Shown here in pieces: positions 32,792 through 35,890 of a stretch of DNA of 64,000 nt. The stretch spans positions 1 through 64,000 of IMG/VR virus record IMGVR_UViG_3300021960_000046; one strand, given 5' to 3'. Below the pieces are notes generated by a model. That model searched no databases and was not told the origin of the DNA. It saw only the letters and a list, made by a program, of their open reading frames with translations. How positions within the stretch are numbered: the stretch's first letter is position 1; each line of letters opens with the position of its first letter. The translations under genes were made by a program, and so were the position numbers. The DNA comes from a virus.

Positions 32792-32865
32792 TGGAGCGGA
32801 TGAGTGGTACTGCCCCACTTTCATTTGATTGGAAATCAAATATAATACTTTTATACGACATCCGC
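32792..32865 (-). tRNA. trnG: tRNA-Gly(UCC), atypical D/T loops
   Basis: GCGGATG/CATCCGC acceptor stem, U73 plus CCA, loop TT-TCC-AA; T-loop GGCAGTA. Confidence 0.8.
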
Positions 32866-33242: not shown

Positions 33243-33686
33243 CTATTTAACTTCAATAGTCTTTGGTTGTTTGTGTTCTGGAATAATTCTTTCCAAAGAC
33301 ACTTTTAAAAGGCCGTCTTTTAGTTCGGCACCTTTAACTTCAACATCATCAGCGATTGTAAAAGCTTTAGAGAAATATCTTTTAGCGATACCCTTATGGA
33401 TAACACCATCTTCCTCGTTATCTTCTTTTTCTTCTTTGATTGATTTGATAGTTAATACACCATCTTCCAAAGATACATCAATATCTTTTTTAGAATAACC
33501 TGCTAATGCAAGTTCAACATCATAGGTATTTTTACCTGTCTTTACAATGTTGTATGGTGGGAAATTAGGGACAGAAAGTCCTCTAAAGTCGTCTTCAAAC
33601 ATTCTTTCGAAATGGTCAAAGACATTATCAAAACCGATTGTTACCGGTCTTAATTGATTGAATATACTTAGTGCTTTGTTTGTCAT
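33243..33686 (-). CDS. hsp20: Small heat-shock protein Hsp20 (IbpA-like)
   Basis: IGFD, FPPYNIVK, ELALAGY, HKGIAKRYF, LKDGLL. Confidence 0.95.
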   Translation of the reverse strand: MTNKALSIFNQLRPVTIGFDNVFDHFERMFEDDFRGLSVPNFPPYNIVKTGKNTYDVELALAGYSKKDIDVSLEDGVLTIKSIKEEKEDNEEDGVIHKGIAKRYFSKAFTIADDVEVKGAELKDGLLKVSLERIIPEHKQPKTIEVK

Positions 33687-33754
33687 ACAAACCTCCTTTT
33701 ATTAAGCAAAGTTTATTGTTATTAAATGAAAGCCCATTATGGCACTTTCACATT
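33687..33754 (-). promoter_or_regulatory. ROSE-like RNA thermometer in the hsp20 5' UTR
   Basis: AAACUUUGCUU-AAUAA-AAGGAGGUUU hairpin pairs UUGCU with the SD, with a bulged G; a second hairpin lies upstream. Confidence 0.7.
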
Positions 33755-33786
33755 TATTTATATAGGTATTCATTTTAAAATGTCAA
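33755..33786 (-). promoter_or_regulatory. hsp20 promoter: TTGACA box plus TATAAATA
   Basis: TTGACA at 33781..33786; TATAAATA at 33755..33762. Confidence 0.65.
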
Positions 33787-34008
33787 CCCATAATGTATAA
33801 TTAATCCTACACCAAGAATTACTATCTGTGGTGTAAAATTGAGAAGAATACTCTTCTCTTGCCATTTGATACCCACATAGGTCCATAGAATAGCACCTAA
33901 CATGTGTACTATGACATTATAAGGGTATGCTTCTGGTATTGTGTGTAATGCTATCGCTATTAATATAGTCGAAGCAGCCACATACTTTATAATATTCACC
34001 ATTTTCAT
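33775..34008 (-). CDS. Small multi-pass membrane protein
   Basis: 77 aa, three hydrophobic segments, YPYN..GAILW pattern. Confidence 0.65.
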   Translation of the reverse strand: MKMVNIIKYVAASTILIAIALHTIPEAYPYNVIVHMLGAILWTYVGIKWQEKSILLNFTPQIVILGVGLIIHYGLTF

Positions 34009-34020
34009 ATCCTCATATAA

Positions 34021-34336
34021 GTGGTAGTTTCGGTTTAGGGTCTTAAACTACCAAAGAGAGCCGCAGCTTTAGTTTGGAGATTATAGAGGTGAAACTAAGC
34101 GCAAATGCTAAAACCCCTCTGTATCTGGTAGTGGTAGGCCTCACCCACTTTTACCCTAGTATCTACTTAAAGACACATTTCCCGAGGTCACGCTAGCGAC
34201 CTTTTACGGCTACGAAGGCCAATGGACCAGATAAGGTGGTAGTTTTGATAAAGCAGACTACCAACTGCTGACTATTCGGATTGAACCGAGGCGTCACCCC
34301 TTCCATCGCTGGAGGTCTTACGAATTGCCTCCACAT
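34021..34336 (-). ncRNA. Large structured non-coding RNA candidate with two H-type pseudoknots
   Basis: ORF-free, GC-richer than flanks, many nested stems identifiable by eye, AATAAATA late-type promoter at 34339..34346. Confidence 0.7.
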
Positions 34337-34382
34337 ACTATTTATTACACTTCACGGCACAGCAGATGGAACGAAATCTCTA

Positions 34383-34586
34383 TTATTTCATTCTTTCAAG
34401 TTTAGCTAATCGCTTTTTAGTATTTTTAATACCTTGCTTCTTAGCCTCTCTACGAATTTCTGAAGGTTTCATATAGTATTGTCTATCTCTAATTTCTTTG
34501 ATAAGACCCTCTTTCTGAACCTTTCTTTTAAGAACACGCATAGCCTGTTCTAAATTGCCATTTCTTACTTTTATTTCTATCGCCAA
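34383..34586 (-). CDS. rpsU: Ribosomal protein S21 (bS21)
   Basis: IKVRNGNLEQAMRVLKRKVQKEG..KEIRDRQYYMKPSE.RR; TTG start. Confidence 0.93.
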   Translation of the reverse strand: MAIEIKVRNGNLEQAMRVLKRKVQKEGLIKEIRDRQYYMKPSEIRREAKKQGIKNTKKRLAKLERMK

Positions 34587-34605
34587 ATTATACTTTAACC
34601 TTTCT

Positions 34606-34686
34606 TGTCCTTTTCAAAAAAGTGGTGGTAGGGACACTACCCCCTACCACCGTTTCGAAAGGACACTCTTCGCTTAATGCGAAGAA
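34606..34686 (-). promoter_or_regulatory. Structured rpsU leader with nested terminator-like hairpin
   Basis: GGUGGUAGGG/CCCUACCACC stem plus U-tract inside an outer UGUCCUUU/AAAGGACA stem; preceding UCUUCGC/GCGAAGA hairpin. Confidence 0.6.
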
Positions 34687-34693
34687 TTGAGTA

Positions 34694-35890
34694 TTAGATA
34701 ACCTCTTGGTCATCTGAGGACTCCTCCTCACTCATTTGGGAAGCAATATCAGATTGTCTTTGCTGTTCTGCTATCTGCTCAGCAGTAGCACCAGCGTCAA
34801 CTTTCTGGTATAGTTCCATAAATGAATTCTTTGTATCATCATCAAATCTGTTTGTACACACTTCAATAGCTTTCATTTTGTTATTGAAGATAGCAAACGC
34901 TTGAATGATATGTACTAACCTTCTGGTTGAAATAATCTCATCAACACCACCATCAAAGTAGGTTTTTCTGATTACATCAGCCCAAGTTACCAACTTATTA
35001 CAAAAGTCTTTGTCTTTTTTACCAGACTTTTCTAAAGTATTGATAAGGATTTTCTCCTCAACCTTAGCAGTTGGATACTTTTGTTCAAAGGTAATTGGAA
35101 ATCTTTCCAAGAACGCCTCGTTCAATACATTAGTACCGATAAACTTACCATCATCACTACCTTGACCTTTTGTATTGGCAGTAGCAATGACATTGAAACC
35201 ATCAGCAGGTTTCACAAACTTGTTAATCTTTTTAACAAAGACACCAGAGCCTTCTAAGATTGGTTGTAAACACATAATCTTATTAGACGCAAGGTCAATC
35301 TCATCAAGTAACAAGACAGCGCCTCTTTCCATGGCTTCGATAACAGGACCATTTTGCCATACGGTCTGACCGTCTTTAAGTCTGTAACCACCTAAAAGGT
35401 CGTCTTCATCTGTCTCAATGGTAATGTTAACCCTAATAAGTTCTCTCTTATTCTCGGCACAAGCCTGAGTAACACCCATTGTCTTACCATTACCAGACAA
35501 ACCAGTAATGAAGATTGGATAAAACATTCCAGATTTAACAATCTGTTTAACATCTGGATAGTTACCAAATGAAACGAATACTGGATCCTTTTTAGGAACA
35601 ATATCGCCTGTTAGTGAAGACACAACATAAGCCGCCTCATAATTTTTTTGACTTTCTGGTGCCAAAATCTTTTCAGCAACCGGAGTAGTCTCACCAACTC
35701 CTTCACCATCAACTGGTAGTTTGAACATAGACTTACCAATTTTGTAGTCTGAGTTCTTAATCAACCATTGAGGTGCATATTTACAGCCAAACTTTTTGTT
35801 GGCTTCTTTAAGTTGTTGAACCGTTAACTCGGCAGTACCGAATTTTTGAACGGCATAATCAACAAACTCTTTTTGTTTAGTATTTAACAT
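34694..35890 (-). CDS. CobS-like/MoxR-type AAA+ ATPase
   Basis: GLSGNGKT, LLLDEID, ATANTKGQG, NEAFLERF, ISTRRL. Confidence 0.9.
   Translation of the reverse strand: MLNTKQKEFVDYAVQKFGTAELTVQQLKEANKKFGCKYAPQWLIKNSDYKIGKSMFKLPVDGEGVGETTPVAEKILAPESQKNYEAAYVVSSLTGDIVPKKDPVFVSFGNYPDVKQIVKSGMFYPIFITGLSGNGKTMGVTQACAENKRELIRVNITIETDEDDLLGGYRLKDGQTVWQNGPVIEAMERGAVLLLDEIDLASNKIMCLQPILEGSGVFVKKINKFVKPADGFNVIATANTKGQGSDDGKFIGTNVLNEAFLERFPITFEQKYPTAKVEEKILINTLEKSGKKDKDFCNKLVTWADVIRKTYFDGGVDEIISTRRLVHIIQAFAIFNNKMKAIEVCTNRFDDDTKNSFMELYQKVDAGATAEQIAEQQRQSDIASQMSEEESSDDQEVI

What the first reader, a model, noticed from the sequence alone, without database searches (positions are those of the whole stretch)
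34021..34346. ~315-nt pseudoknot-rich structured RNA between rpsU and a small membrane gene
Seen on the minus strand after an AATAAATA late-type promoter (34339..34346): a GGAGG/CCUCC hairpin; a UGAC..GUCA stem holding UCGG/CCGA; an AGCAG/CUGCU hairpin whose UUGGUAGU loop can pair with downstream ACUACCA (pseudoknot 1, 34237..34270); an 8-bp UAUCUGGU/ACCAGAUA helix (34226..34233 with 34122..34129) closing a multibranch domain of at least three hairpins; an AGAGG/CCUCU helix whose internal UUAGUUU can pair with downstream AAACUAA (pseudoknot 2, 34069..34123); and a terminal UGGUAGUUU/AAACUACCA hairpin. GGUAGU/ACUACC recurs, allowing alternative pairings. No ORF of 60 aa or more lies here in an otherwise gene-dense genome. 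Inference: a functional ncRNA or tandem RNAs; it may relate to orphan marine-phage motifs such as manA RNA, but I cannot assign it.
Basis: partly seen in the sequence, partly recalled or inferred. Interest (0 to 1): 0.8.

Follow-up and report, generated by a model that had tools for sequence, protein, structure and literature searches.

The report
Modular pseudoknot RNA array in pelagiphage
The gap between the phage ribosomal-protein S21 gene and the small heat-shock gene holds a real, conserved chain of folded RNA modules, one of which is a previously undescribed self-contained RNA shared by very different phages of the ocean bacterium Pelagibacter.

Summary
No conserved ORF lies there.

The single-sequence fold energy is not significant (z -1.46). 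The support is covariation among more than 100 related marine viral and metagenome loci.

The stretch is a tandem array, not one RNA:
- **Core** (34237..34371): an AT-rich box, a hairpin with loop C-NN-UYCRUAAG-N, a further hairpin and an H-type pseudoknot. In relatives without S21 this core is simply the 5' leader of hsp20.
- **Module 4** (34120..34234): a self-contained four-way junction with a pseudoknot. About two-thirds of matches (63 of 100) lie in this myophage gap. Most others follow a small gene in siphophage-type contigs, including cultured Pelagibacter phage Kolga.
- **Modules 5 and 6** (34021..34120): two more pseudoknot units.

No Rfam 15 family, tmRNA, manA or T4 rnaC/rnaD matches. 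A strict module-4 signature gave 0 hits in 185,579 prokaryote species genomes and at least 120 in metagenome contigs.

RNA-library contigs of four studies cover modules 4-6. In one, depth is about 1000 against 0-3 over the flanking ORFs.

Function is unknown. My best reading is a promoter-proximal leader cassette expanded by autonomous RNA modules. The scan had noted this stretch only on this same genome.

The parts
34383..34586 (-). Phage bS21 gene (upstream neighbour). The RNA starts within about 12 nt of its stop codon.
   Evidence: Pfam Ribosomal_S21, E 3.5e-16. ORF list.
34301..34371 (-). Outer helix 'P1core', 34362..34371 with 34301..34309. It encloses the AT-rich box AATAAATA (34339..34346) and the hairpin P2 (34310..34333, loop CAAUUCGUAAGA).
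   Evidence: Read. In a model-fitted alignment of relatives, 7 of 7 P1core pairs and 4 of 5 P2 pairs show compensatory changes. An anchored helix of 7 bp or more is found in 88 of 129 unique copies, against 33% of mismatched partners. 44 helix variants were seen, and 61 of 389 pairs are G-U.
34269..34300 (-). Hairpin P3 of the window's subtype: GGGG-UGAC..GUCA holding UCGG/CCGA.
   Evidence: The inner stem is replaced wholesale in relatives while its flanks stay the same: CGUUC/GAACG in L014, AGAAUUU/AAAUUCU in L001, GUGUU/AACAC in L245. This was read by eye and not counted formally.
34237..34269 (-). H-type pseudoknot 1 (PKa). S1 is AGCAG/CUGCU, S2 is UGGUAGU/ACUACCA, and loop 3 is A-rich.
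   Evidence: S1: 4 of 5 pairs compensatory. S2: a helix of 6 bp or more in 51 of 51 distinct relatives (mean 8.3 bp), against mean 5.2 bp and 30% at 6 bp or more for mismatched partners. 29 variants were seen.
34120..34234 (-). Module 4: a self-contained four-way junction (P1-P4) plus the pseudoknot GGCCU:AGGCC. Junctions and loops are highly conserved: YCAUUGGYCUUYGUAGC, a GUAAGA-type loop, UAGGGUAAAAG and the loop GUGAGGCCUA.
   Evidence: Model R1 hit of 79.5 bits, E 6.9e-21. On 70 distinct sequences, 92.3% of cells pair against 72.3% in shuffles and 25-48% with slid partners. The covariation score is 0.511 against 0.154 (0 of 500 shuffles reach it). 17 of 26 pairs are compensatory, and the pseudoknot pair is UA:55/CG:15 with no break. 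An independent MAFFT alignment gives the same picture.
34069..34120 (-). Module 5: helix AGAGG/CCUCU around the small hairpin AGC-AUUUGC-GCU, plus pseudoknot 2 UUAGUUU/AAACUAA.
   Evidence: Hairpin pair AU:26/GC:24 with no break. Pseudoknot pairs UA:39/CG:9/GC:2 and AU:25/GU:25, both with no break. The outer helix has variants GUGG/CCAC, GUGUU/AACAC and GAGUU/AACUC by eye, but it is misaligned in A8 (57% paired).
34021..34068 (-). Module 6: conserved AAGCUGCGG, then an H-type pseudoknot. S1 is GG.UCU with AGA.CC in its loop.
   Evidence: S2 core variants: GGUAG/CUACC, GGUUA/UAACC, GGCAU/AUGCC, GGUGG/CCACC, GGUAA/UUACC. S1 variants by eye: GAGUU/AACUC, GUGUU/AACAC, GGCU/AGCC. The own-versus-cross test was not discriminating for this 4-5 bp helix. 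Close relatives L014, L007 and L020 have a run of 7-8 U here; the window does not.
33775..34008 (-). Small membrane ORF (DUF6552) inserted between the RNA array and the hsp20 promoter. Its GAGG ribosome-binding site lies 7-10 nt after the last pseudoknot.
   Evidence: Pfam DUF6552, E 5.2e-08. It is absent from most relatives: only L015 and L016 among the 80 loci have it in this position. RNA-library contigs join 33768..33786 directly to 34017..34022.
33687..33774 (-). hsp20 proximal promoter region and short leader: TTGACA, TATAAATA at 33755..33762, the conserved bulged hairpin GAAAGUGCCAUAAUGGGCUUUC, then CUUUGCUUAA and the Shine-Dalgarno sequence. In S21-less relatives this lies in the same transcript as the core.
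33243..33686 (-). hsp20 gene, the most constant downstream neighbour of the core RNA.
   Evidence: Pfam HSP20, E 7e-17. It lies downstream in 115 of 122 assessable unique core copies.

Best explanation
The stretch is a chain of independently folding RNA modules on the gene strand. It is made by read-through from bS21 and probably also from the AT-rich TATA(A/T)ATA box inside it.

**The founding part.** The founding part is a box-proximal 5'-terminal hairpin with the loop C-NN-UYCRUAAG-N, followed by an H-type pseudoknot with an A-rich third loop. This is a leader cassette that sits in front of hsp20, and in a few lineages in front of another gene.

**The expansion.** In the window's lineage three things were inserted into the cassette:
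- an autonomous, closed four-way-junction-plus-pseudoknot RNA (module 4);
- two further pseudoknot units;
- a small membrane ORF.

**Shown.** The folds are shown by covariation, the modularity by presence and absence among relatives. The RNA is absent from Rfam and from prokaryote genomes, and it is present in RNA libraries.

**Inferred.**
- The hairpin at the transcript's 5' end and the compact pseudoknots act in cis. They would protect the transcript from 5'-end-dependent and exonucleolytic decay and set how much hsp20/DUF6552 message survives.
- Module 4, whose roughly 40 unpaired positions are almost invariant, is a specific binding domain for a protein or small molecule. It persists as a stable fragment.
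For: **Conserved non-coding gap**
- In 76 of 80 S21-anchored viral loci, hsp20 follows S21 after 220-556 nt.
- Among 129 unique copies, 66 have no ATG at the position of the window's 47-aa ORF. Where an ATG exists, the conserved loop falls in all three frames (33/19/11).

**Covariation**
- Core helices: 90.8% of cells paired against 69.6% in shuffles, and 20 of 22 pairs compensatory.
- Pseudoknot 1 S2: 51 of 51 relatives, 29 variants.
- Module 4.
- Module 5.
- G-U pairs (61 of 389 in the outer helix; AU/GU exchange) put the structure on the gene strand as RNA.

**Leader role**
- Nine or more S21-less contigs run CobS stop, TATATATAA box, hairpin, pseudoknot, bulged hairpin, Shine-Dalgarno, hsp20 in about 125 nt, with no internal promoter.
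- The L095 group puts the same cassette in front of a different ORF.
- hsp20 lies downstream in 115 of 122 assessable copies.
- The box ends 0-8 nt before the hairpin base.

**Module autonomy**
- 37 of 100 module-4 matches have neither S21 nor hsp20 nearby.
- 28 loci carry a homologue of Kolga gp47, in 27 of them within about 170 nt upstream of the RNA.
- Cultured siphophage Kolga has a 75.3-bit copy.

**RNA presence**
- Contigs of RNA libraries from four studies cover modules 4-6.
- In X1 the depth is 806-1161 over 34124..34247, against 0-2.1 over the S21 ORF and 2.6 over the DUF6552 ORF.
Against: - No experiment or read-level data shows a transcript start, end or half-life. The RNA-library evidence is contig depth. 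It can sum related phages and may contain DNA.
- In the window and most myophage relatives, a separate TTGACA/TATAAATA promoter lies between the array and hsp20. Close relatives end the array with a U-run. Both fit a separate ncRNA gene as well as a leader.
- The covarying outer helix encloses the putative promoter. A transcript started at the box cannot form that helix.
- Module 4 in siphophage contigs is followed by another RNA (Flavobacterium-1) and a convergent ORF, so it has no cis target there.
- Core model R2 did not reach E 0.01 on the window itself. The formal core counts therefore come from sister subtypes, on an alignment fitted to the model.
- The single-sequence fold energy is unremarkable.
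Confidence: 0.5

Rival explanations
1. The array, or module 4 alone, is a trans-acting stable small RNA. It is cut out of the S21-hsp20 transcript or ended at the U-run seen in relatives. It binds or decoys a Pelagibacter factor, possibly one tied to translation or to phage bS21.
For: - Module 4 is closed by its own P1 helix and occurs in unrelated pelagiphage types, myophage and siphophage. That fits a host-directed function.
- It swaps order with another free-standing RNA, Flavobacterium-1.
- It has the highest depth in RNA libraries.
- U-runs follow the array, or P1 of module 4, in L014, L007, L020, L008 and L313.
- In both Kolga and the myophages an S21 gene lies within 300 nt upstream.
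Against: - No partner is identified.
- S21 was not found by tblastn near the other 27 gp47-linked copies, so the S21 link may be synteny within one lineage plus one coincidence.
- The window has no terminator after the array. The DUF6552 ribosome-binding site follows at once.
Confidence: 0.27
2. Module 4 is a ligand-sensing aptamer (riboswitch) or a self-cleaving ribozyme. The following pseudoknot and U-run units, or P1 plus a U-run, serve as its expression platform or define the cleavage products.
For: - The fold is about 95 nt: a four-way junction with a loop-to-junction pseudoknot.
- 37 columns are invariant in junctions and loops while all four stems covary. This is the conservation pattern typical of aptamers and ribozymes (established knowledge).
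- P2 is capped by UUCG, UACG or GAAA tetraloops.
- In L230 and L323 an ORF starts 10-15 nt after P1.
- In L008 and L313, P1 is followed directly by six U.
Against: - Downstream content is inconsistent: hsp20 promoter, other RNA modules, a convergent ORF.
- No alternative pairing with P1 was found.
- No Rfam riboswitch or ribozyme family matched at E up to 10.
- All known copies are from one host group, so invariance may reflect shallow divergence.
Confidence: 0.15
3. The features act as DNA (promoter-flanking inverted repeats, or a replication or packaging signal), or the region encodes small proteins, or the helices are chance.
For: - The AT-rich box is flanked by an inverted repeat.
- GenBank annotates two small hypothetical ORFs over the equivalent stretch of phage Mosig.
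- The fold-energy z-score is only -1.46.
Against: - G-U pairs would be A-C mismatches on the other strand.
- Pseudoknots and tetraloop caps have no meaning in DNA.
- Frames are not conserved.
- Covariation far exceeds the shuffled and slid controls.
Confidence: 0.03

Closest known systems
T4 gene 32 mRNA leader pseudoknot (recalled; not fetched or compared here)
   Same: An H-type pseudoknot near the 5' end of a leader in a T4-like phage. It is associated with message stability and translational control.
   Different: The gene differs (hsp20, not the ssDNA-binding protein). Here the pseudoknot follows a conserved hairpin, is repeated up to four times, and is separated from the gene by a second promoter in most myophages. 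No sequence comparison was made.
tmRNA (arrays of H-type pseudoknots)
   Same: Several consecutive H-type pseudoknots of similar design in one RNA of about 350 nt.
   Different: ARAGORN finds no tmRNA in the window. No tmRNA family of Rfam matched at E up to 10. There is no tRNA-like acceptor/T-arm pairing, and no conserved reading frame after pseudoknot 1.
Orphan marine and phage RNA motifs of Rfam (manA, wcaG, Flavobacterium-1 RF02976)
   Same: Pseudoknotted or multi-stem RNAs of unknown function found in marine phage DNA. Flavobacterium-1 RNA lies directly beside module 4, in either order, in siphophage-type contigs.
   Different: None of these models matches the window at E up to 10, or the myophage relatives at E up to 1. 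Module 4 is a separate fold.
ROSE-type RNA thermometers and structured leaders of small heat-shock genes (established for alpha- and gamma-proteobacterial hsp20/ibpA)
   Same: A multi-hairpin 5' leader in front of an hsp20 gene. The last hairpin can pair CUUUG with the CAAAG that overlaps the Shine-Dalgarno sequence.
   Different: No ROSE family matched 33560..33800 at E up to 10. The pseudoknot array lies upstream of the proximal promoter in the window.
Four-way-junction aptamers with a loop-junction pseudoknot, such as the SAM-I riboswitch (recalled architecture)
   Same: Comparable size and topology: P1-P4 around a junction plus one pseudoknot, with conserved junction nucleotides.
   Different: No sequence or model similarity. 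Here the pseudoknot joins J1/2 to the P4 loop. No consistent downstream gene or expression platform was found.

Membership tests
Any Rfam 15 family (4227 models) | A covariance-model match at or near the family's gathering score. | tested here: not met
   - Window at gathering threshold: 3 tRNAs only.
- 33700..34700 at E up to 10: 6 weak hits, none overlapping the structured core meaningfully and all far below gathering.
- 12 relatives: tRNAs and two weak hits only.
tmRNA | A tRNA-like domain (acceptor stem, T arm, CCA end) plus a tag reading frame after pseudoknot 1. | tested here: not met
   - ARAGORN reports 2 tRNAs and no tmRNA.
- No tmRNA model hit.
- The frames after pseudoknot 1 differ by an indel between the window and L001, and no frame is conserved.
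   No manA hit.
Pseudoknot riboswitches (preQ1-I/II/III, SAM-II/V) | A match to the family model. By recall, these families have a short ligand-dependent second helix. | tested here: not met
   No hit at E up to 10. S2 of pseudoknot 1 is 6-11 bp in 51 of 51 relatives, which indicates a constitutive pseudoknot.
ROSE RNA thermometer (for the adjoining hsp20 leader) | A match to the ROSE, ROSE_2 or ROSE_3 models. | tested here: not met
   No ROSE hit in 33560..33800 at E up to 10. The functional analogy was not tested.
T4 stable RNAs rnaC/rnaD | Similarity to the annotated T4 species 1 and 2 RNAs. | tested here: not met
   Module-4 model R1, run with filters off on T4 69500..74500, gave a best E of 0.44, and that hit lies outside rnaC/rnaD. 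Only module 4 was compared.
Intrinsic terminator (for the terminal hairpin) | A G+C-rich stem followed by a run of U. | tested here: not met
   - The terminator scan finds none in 34021..34382.
- The window has CUUAUAUG after the stem.
- Relatives L014, L007 and L020 do carry 7-8 U there.
New family 'module 4' (model R1 built here) | P1-P4 four-way junction, GGYCU:AGRCC pseudoknot, and the conserved strings CAUUGG..GUAGC, GUAAGA and GUGAGRCCUA. | tested here: met
   Window hit of 79.5 bits, E 6.9e-21, matching the full model 1-96. The window differs in its P3 loop (UUAAGU) and has a longer, branched P2.

The most novel reading that the evidence does not exclude
Module 4 is a new class of ligand- or protein-sensing RNA (or a ribozyme) specific to viruses of SAR11. 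It has been exchanged between myophages and siphophages because it acts on a Pelagibacter-specific target, possibly the ribosome together with phage bS21. On this reading it is among the most abundant viral RNAs in surface-ocean metatranscriptomes.
Probability: 0.2. Interest if true: 0.85.

Novelty: new variant of a known kind. Interest (0 to 1): 0.7.

Why it matters
**Scale.** By recalled literature, pelagiphages are among the most numerous viruses in the sea, and their hosts are noted for relying on RNA-based regulation.

**What this locus adds**
- It shows that pelagiphages carry dense cassettes of structured RNA that current annotation misses or mislabels. Two 'hypothetical proteins' of phage Mosig lie over the array. 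The Kolga copy sits in an unannotated gap.
- It gives a well-defined new RNA fold with a ready covariance model.
- There are cultured systems to test it in: Kolga and Mosig on Pelagibacter.
- It gives a concrete link between phage bS21, hsp20 and RNA structure that can be examined by RNA-seq of infections.

**If module 4 binds a ligand or a host factor,** it would be a new handle on how phages take over SAR11.

Tried and rejected
**Identities rejected**
- **tmRNA, including the two-piece alphaproteobacterial form.** I considered it because of the GGGG..GUUCAAUCC string and the pseudoknot array. I rejected it on ARAGORN and Rfam negatives, a 6-nt rather than 7-nt loop, and no conserved frame.
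- **A small protein starting at the ATG before the hairpin.** Rejected.
- **Homology to T4 rnaC/rnaD.** Rejected for module 4.
- **A 'flavophage' origin for the second module-4 group.** Rejected. The adjoining small ORF matches Pelagibacter phages Kolga, Aegir and HTVC026P, and phage 023Pt_psg01.
- **Cobalamin, Mn2+ and THF riboswitch resemblances.** These were recalled by eye only, and no model hit supports them.

**Tests that gave nothing usable**
- Alignment-free own-versus-cross tests did not discriminate for the 4-5 bp helices, namely the module 5 outer helix and module 6 S1. The unanchored outer-helix test was weak too: 8.2 against 7.2 bp.
- Core model R2 aligned divergent subtypes poorly and did not reach E 0.01 on the window.
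- MAFFT alignments A1 and A2 of the core were not structurally consistent.

**Searches for the RNA in genomes and cultured phages**
- Module 4 was not found in 3 alphaproteobacterial genomes.
- It was not found in 151 genomes of the order of G001. That order is unnamed to me, so this says little about Pelagibacterales.
- blastn of a siphophage-type copy found nothing in the 50,697 phage records.
- HTVC026P and 023Pt_psg01 have the gp47-like gene but no R1 hit.

**RNA libraries.** Parts of the stretch without cover in the RNA-library contigs are not evidence of absence.

**Literature**
- Searches for HTVC008M with 'pseudoknot', for pelagiphage with structured-RNA terms, and for 'Flavobacterium-1' found no description of this RNA.
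- In PMC7029224 I read only the passages returned by a term search. They mention S21 as core to pelagimyophages and do not mention an RNA.
- Statements about T4 gene 32, IbpA self-regulation, the SAM-I architecture and ROSE motifs are recalled, not read here.
Full report
**Setting**

The window is part of an 86.7-kb IMG/VR virus record. It is of the T4-like pelagimyophage type. The nearest named relative is Pelagibacter phage Mosig EXVC030M.

On the minus strand the gene order is:
- a CobS-like AAA protein (34694..35890);
- bS21 (34383..34586);
- the stretch in question;
- a DUF6552 membrane ORF (33775..34008);
- hsp20 (33243..33686);
- a tRNA and the gp45 clamp.

**The observation**

No ORF of 60 aa or more is present. 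The longest on the RNA strand is 47 aa.

The thermodynamic fold is not by itself convincing: -96 kcal/mol, z -1.46, and 11 of 100 shuffles fold as well. Rfam 15 finds only tRNAs in the window at gathering score. It finds nothing credible in 33700..34700 at E up to 10. ARAGORN finds no tmRNA.

**Relatives**

A search with the S21 protein gave 80 viral contigs. In 76 of them hsp20 follows S21 after a gap of 220-556 nt. The gap sequences share blocks and differ by whole modules.

Further copies came from three motif scans:
- the hairpin loop in viral contigs (49 of the 80 listed loci carry S21 and/or hsp20 nearby, and the rest lie in unrelated DNA);
- the module-4 junction in viral contigs;
- a strict module-4 signature in metagenome contigs (at least 120 hits).

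The same strict signature gave 0 hits in one genome for each of 185,579 prokaryote species.

**The core (34237..34371)**

All subtypes share four elements:
- an AT-rich [TA]ATA[AT]AT[AT] box;
- a hairpin that begins 0-8 nt later, with the 12-nt loop C-NN-UYCRUAAG-N (24 loop variants and 29 inner-stem variants);
- usually a second hairpin or small pseudoknot;
- an H-type pseudoknot with an A-rich third loop.

In S21-carrying myophages an outer helix pairs the 7-11 nt that follow the S21 stop codon with the nt that follow the hairpin. It thereby encloses the box.

On a model-fitted alignment of 51 distinct sequences, 90.8% of cells pair. Shuffles give 69.6% and slid partners 34-52%. Compensatory changes occur in 20 of 22 pairs. 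That alignment leans towards the structure and does not include the window, because model R2 missed the window at E 0.01.

Two alignment-free checks agree:
- An anchored outer helix of 7 bp or more is present in 88 of 129 unique copies, against 33% with mismatched partners. There are 44 variants, and 16% of pairs are G-U.
- The second helix of pseudoknot 1 is 6 bp or more in 51 of 51 copies, against 30% of mismatched partners, with 29 variants.

The G-U pairs place the structure on the gene strand as RNA.

The ATG before the hairpin does not open a conserved frame.

**What the core is attached to**

Nine or more contigs that lack S21 run as follows, in about 125 nt with no internal promoter: CobS stop, TATATATAA, hairpin, pseudoknot, a bulged hairpin (GUAUCGCCUUAUGGGAUAC), AAUCUUGCUUAG, Shine-Dalgarno, hsp20. 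There the hairpin and pseudoknot are simply the 5' leader of hsp20.

HTVC008M and its group have S21, a 111-aa ORF, then the box, two UCGUAA-loop hairpins, a pseudoknot, a TATAAATA box and hsp20. The L095 group puts the cassette in front of another ORF.

Over 129 unique copies:
- hsp20 lies downstream in 115 of the 122 that can be judged;
- S21 lies upstream in 109 of 119.

Sampling through S21 inflates the S21 figure.

**Module 4 (34120..34234)**

The parts are:
- J1/2, YCAUUGGYCUUYGUAGC;
- P2, variable and often capped by UUCG, UACG or GAAA;
- P3, with loop GUAAGA (UUAAGU in the window);
- J3/4, UUAG-N-AUAA-N;
- P4, with loop GUGAGRCCUA, stacked directly on P1;
- a pseudoknot, GGYCU of J1/2 with AGRCC of the P4 loop.

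On a plain MAFFT alignment of 40 distinct sequences, 90.6% of cells pair, against 73.1% in shuffles. The covariation score is 0.444 against 0.150, reached by 0 of 500 shuffles.

On 70 distinct model-aligned sequences the figures are 92.3% against 72.3%, and 0.511 against 0.154. Seventeen of 26 pairs are compensatory. The one variable pseudoknot pair is UA:55/CG:15 with no break.

Context of the 100 matches:
- 63 lie in the myophage S21-hsp20 gap;
- 37 have neither gene nearby;
- among loci outside the main myophage group, 28 carry a homologue of a 69-aa protein (MDLI..GCICK) that is gp47 of Pelagibacter siphophage Kolga EXVC016S;
- in 27 of those 28 the gene lies within about 170 nt upstream of the RNA.

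Kolga itself carries a 75.3-bit copy (E 1.3e-20) in an unannotated 179-nt gap. Its gene order is RNA polymerase, hypothetical, S21, gp47, RNA. Mosig carries a 58-bit copy, which lies under two annotated 'hypothetical protein' ORFs.

In the siphophage-type contigs module 4 abuts the Rfam Flavobacterium-1 RNA, in either order.

Model R1 finds nothing in:
- the T4 tRNA/rnaC/rnaD region;
- HTVC026P or 023Pt_psg01;
- 3 alphaproteobacterial genomes and 151 genomes of one order, none of which are named to me.

**Modules 5 and 6 (34021..34120)**

Module 5 is a helix (AGAGG/CCUCU) around a 3-bp hairpin with the conserved loop AUUUGC. Its 3' flank UUAGUUU pairs with AAACUAA downstream. The counts show:
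- hairpin pair AU:26/GC:24;
- pseudoknot pairs UA:39/CG:9/GC:2 and AU:25/GU:25;
- none of these has a break.

The outer helix varies compensatorily by eye but is misaligned in A8.

Module 6 is another H-type pseudoknot. The 'terminal hairpin' is its long second helix, with five core variants. The segment after AAGCUGCGG pairs with the hairpin loop. That pairing rests on variants read by eye, and the statistical test was not discriminating.

The window's two GGUAGU/ACUACC units are not interchangeable in relatives.

Close relatives end the array with 7-8 U. In the window the DUF6552 ribosome-binding site follows instead. This ORF is an insertion seen in only a few relatives.

**Expression**

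Twenty-four RNA-library runs from 18 studies hold 6-19% of the sampled words of 33690..34590. Laying contigs of four of them, from four studies, shows cover of modules 4-6 and of the hsp20 leader in all four.

In X1 the summed contig depth is:
- 806-1161 over 34124..34247;
- 0-2.1 over the S21 ORF;
- 2.6 over the DUF6552 ORF.

Contig depth sums related phages and cannot show ends or exclude DNA. I therefore read this as moderate support for an abundant RNA covering module 4, not as proof.

**Interpretation**

Shown:
- a conserved, covarying, non-coding, gene-strand RNA array;
- its modular make-up;
- a new self-contained RNA family shared by myo- and siphophages of Pelagibacter and absent, by the strict signature, from prokaryote genomes.

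Inferred (about 0.5): the founding hairpin-plus-pseudoknot is a promoter-proximal leader cassette that protects and tunes the downstream message. Module 4 is an inserted autonomous binding domain that persists as a stable RNA.

Rivals:
- a trans-acting RNA or decoy, possibly tied to bS21 (about 0.27);
- a riboswitch or ribozyme (about 0.15);
- a DNA-level element, a coding region or chance (about 0.03).

**Novelty**

No Rfam family matched, and three literature searches returned no description. [quoted passage not shown]

Pseudoknotted phage leaders and orphan phage RNAs are known kinds. This family and its cassette organisation are new variants of them.

Noticed in passing
window 33687..33774 (minus strand); also L001-L080 upstream of hsp20: The short hsp20 leader is conserved across all groups. 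It has a hairpin with a bulged G and the loop CGCC-AUAAU-GGG, then AACUUUGCUUAA, whose CUUUG can pair with the CAAAG overlapping the Shine-Dalgarno sequence. No ROSE model matched at E up to 10.
   Followed up: partly
L081 2775..3023 (Pelagibacter phage Mosig, MT647606.1): Two annotated hypothetical proteins, Mosig_00015 and Mosig_00014, lie entirely over the structured RNA array. They are probably not genes.
   Followed up: partly
L441 1244..1830 (Pelagibacter phage Kolga, MT375529.1): A siphophage of Pelagibacter also has S21 (gp46). It is followed by a 69-aa conserved ORF (gp47) and then an unannotated module-4 RNA. The gp47-like ORF precedes the RNA in 27 metagenome and viral contigs.
   Followed up: partly
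L203 10376..10491; L269 8853..8976; L268 8676..8807: The Rfam Flavobacterium-1 RNA (RF02976) occurs in pelagiphage-type contigs directly beside module 4, in either order. Its name may therefore understate its host range.
   Followed up: no
window 34587..34693 (minus strand): A strong terminator-like hairpin (34624..34651, 11 pairs, U-run) separates the CobS-like gene from S21. S21 starts with TTG immediately after a TATAAT string.
   Followed up: no
window 32795..32865 (minus strand): Rfam calls a third tRNA here (43.7 bits) that ARAGORN does not report. Relatives carry a tRNA at the equivalent place downstream of hsp20.
   Followed up: no
window, 8 sites (741, 6473, 16916, 29884, 33755, 54134, 54807, 60825): All 8 exact TATAAATA sites lie on the minus (gene) strand. 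The total count is not above the shuffle expectation of 11.2.
   Followed up: no
L082 2413..2483 (HTVC008M): HTVC008M has a tRNA immediately upstream of its S21 gene.
   Followed up: no
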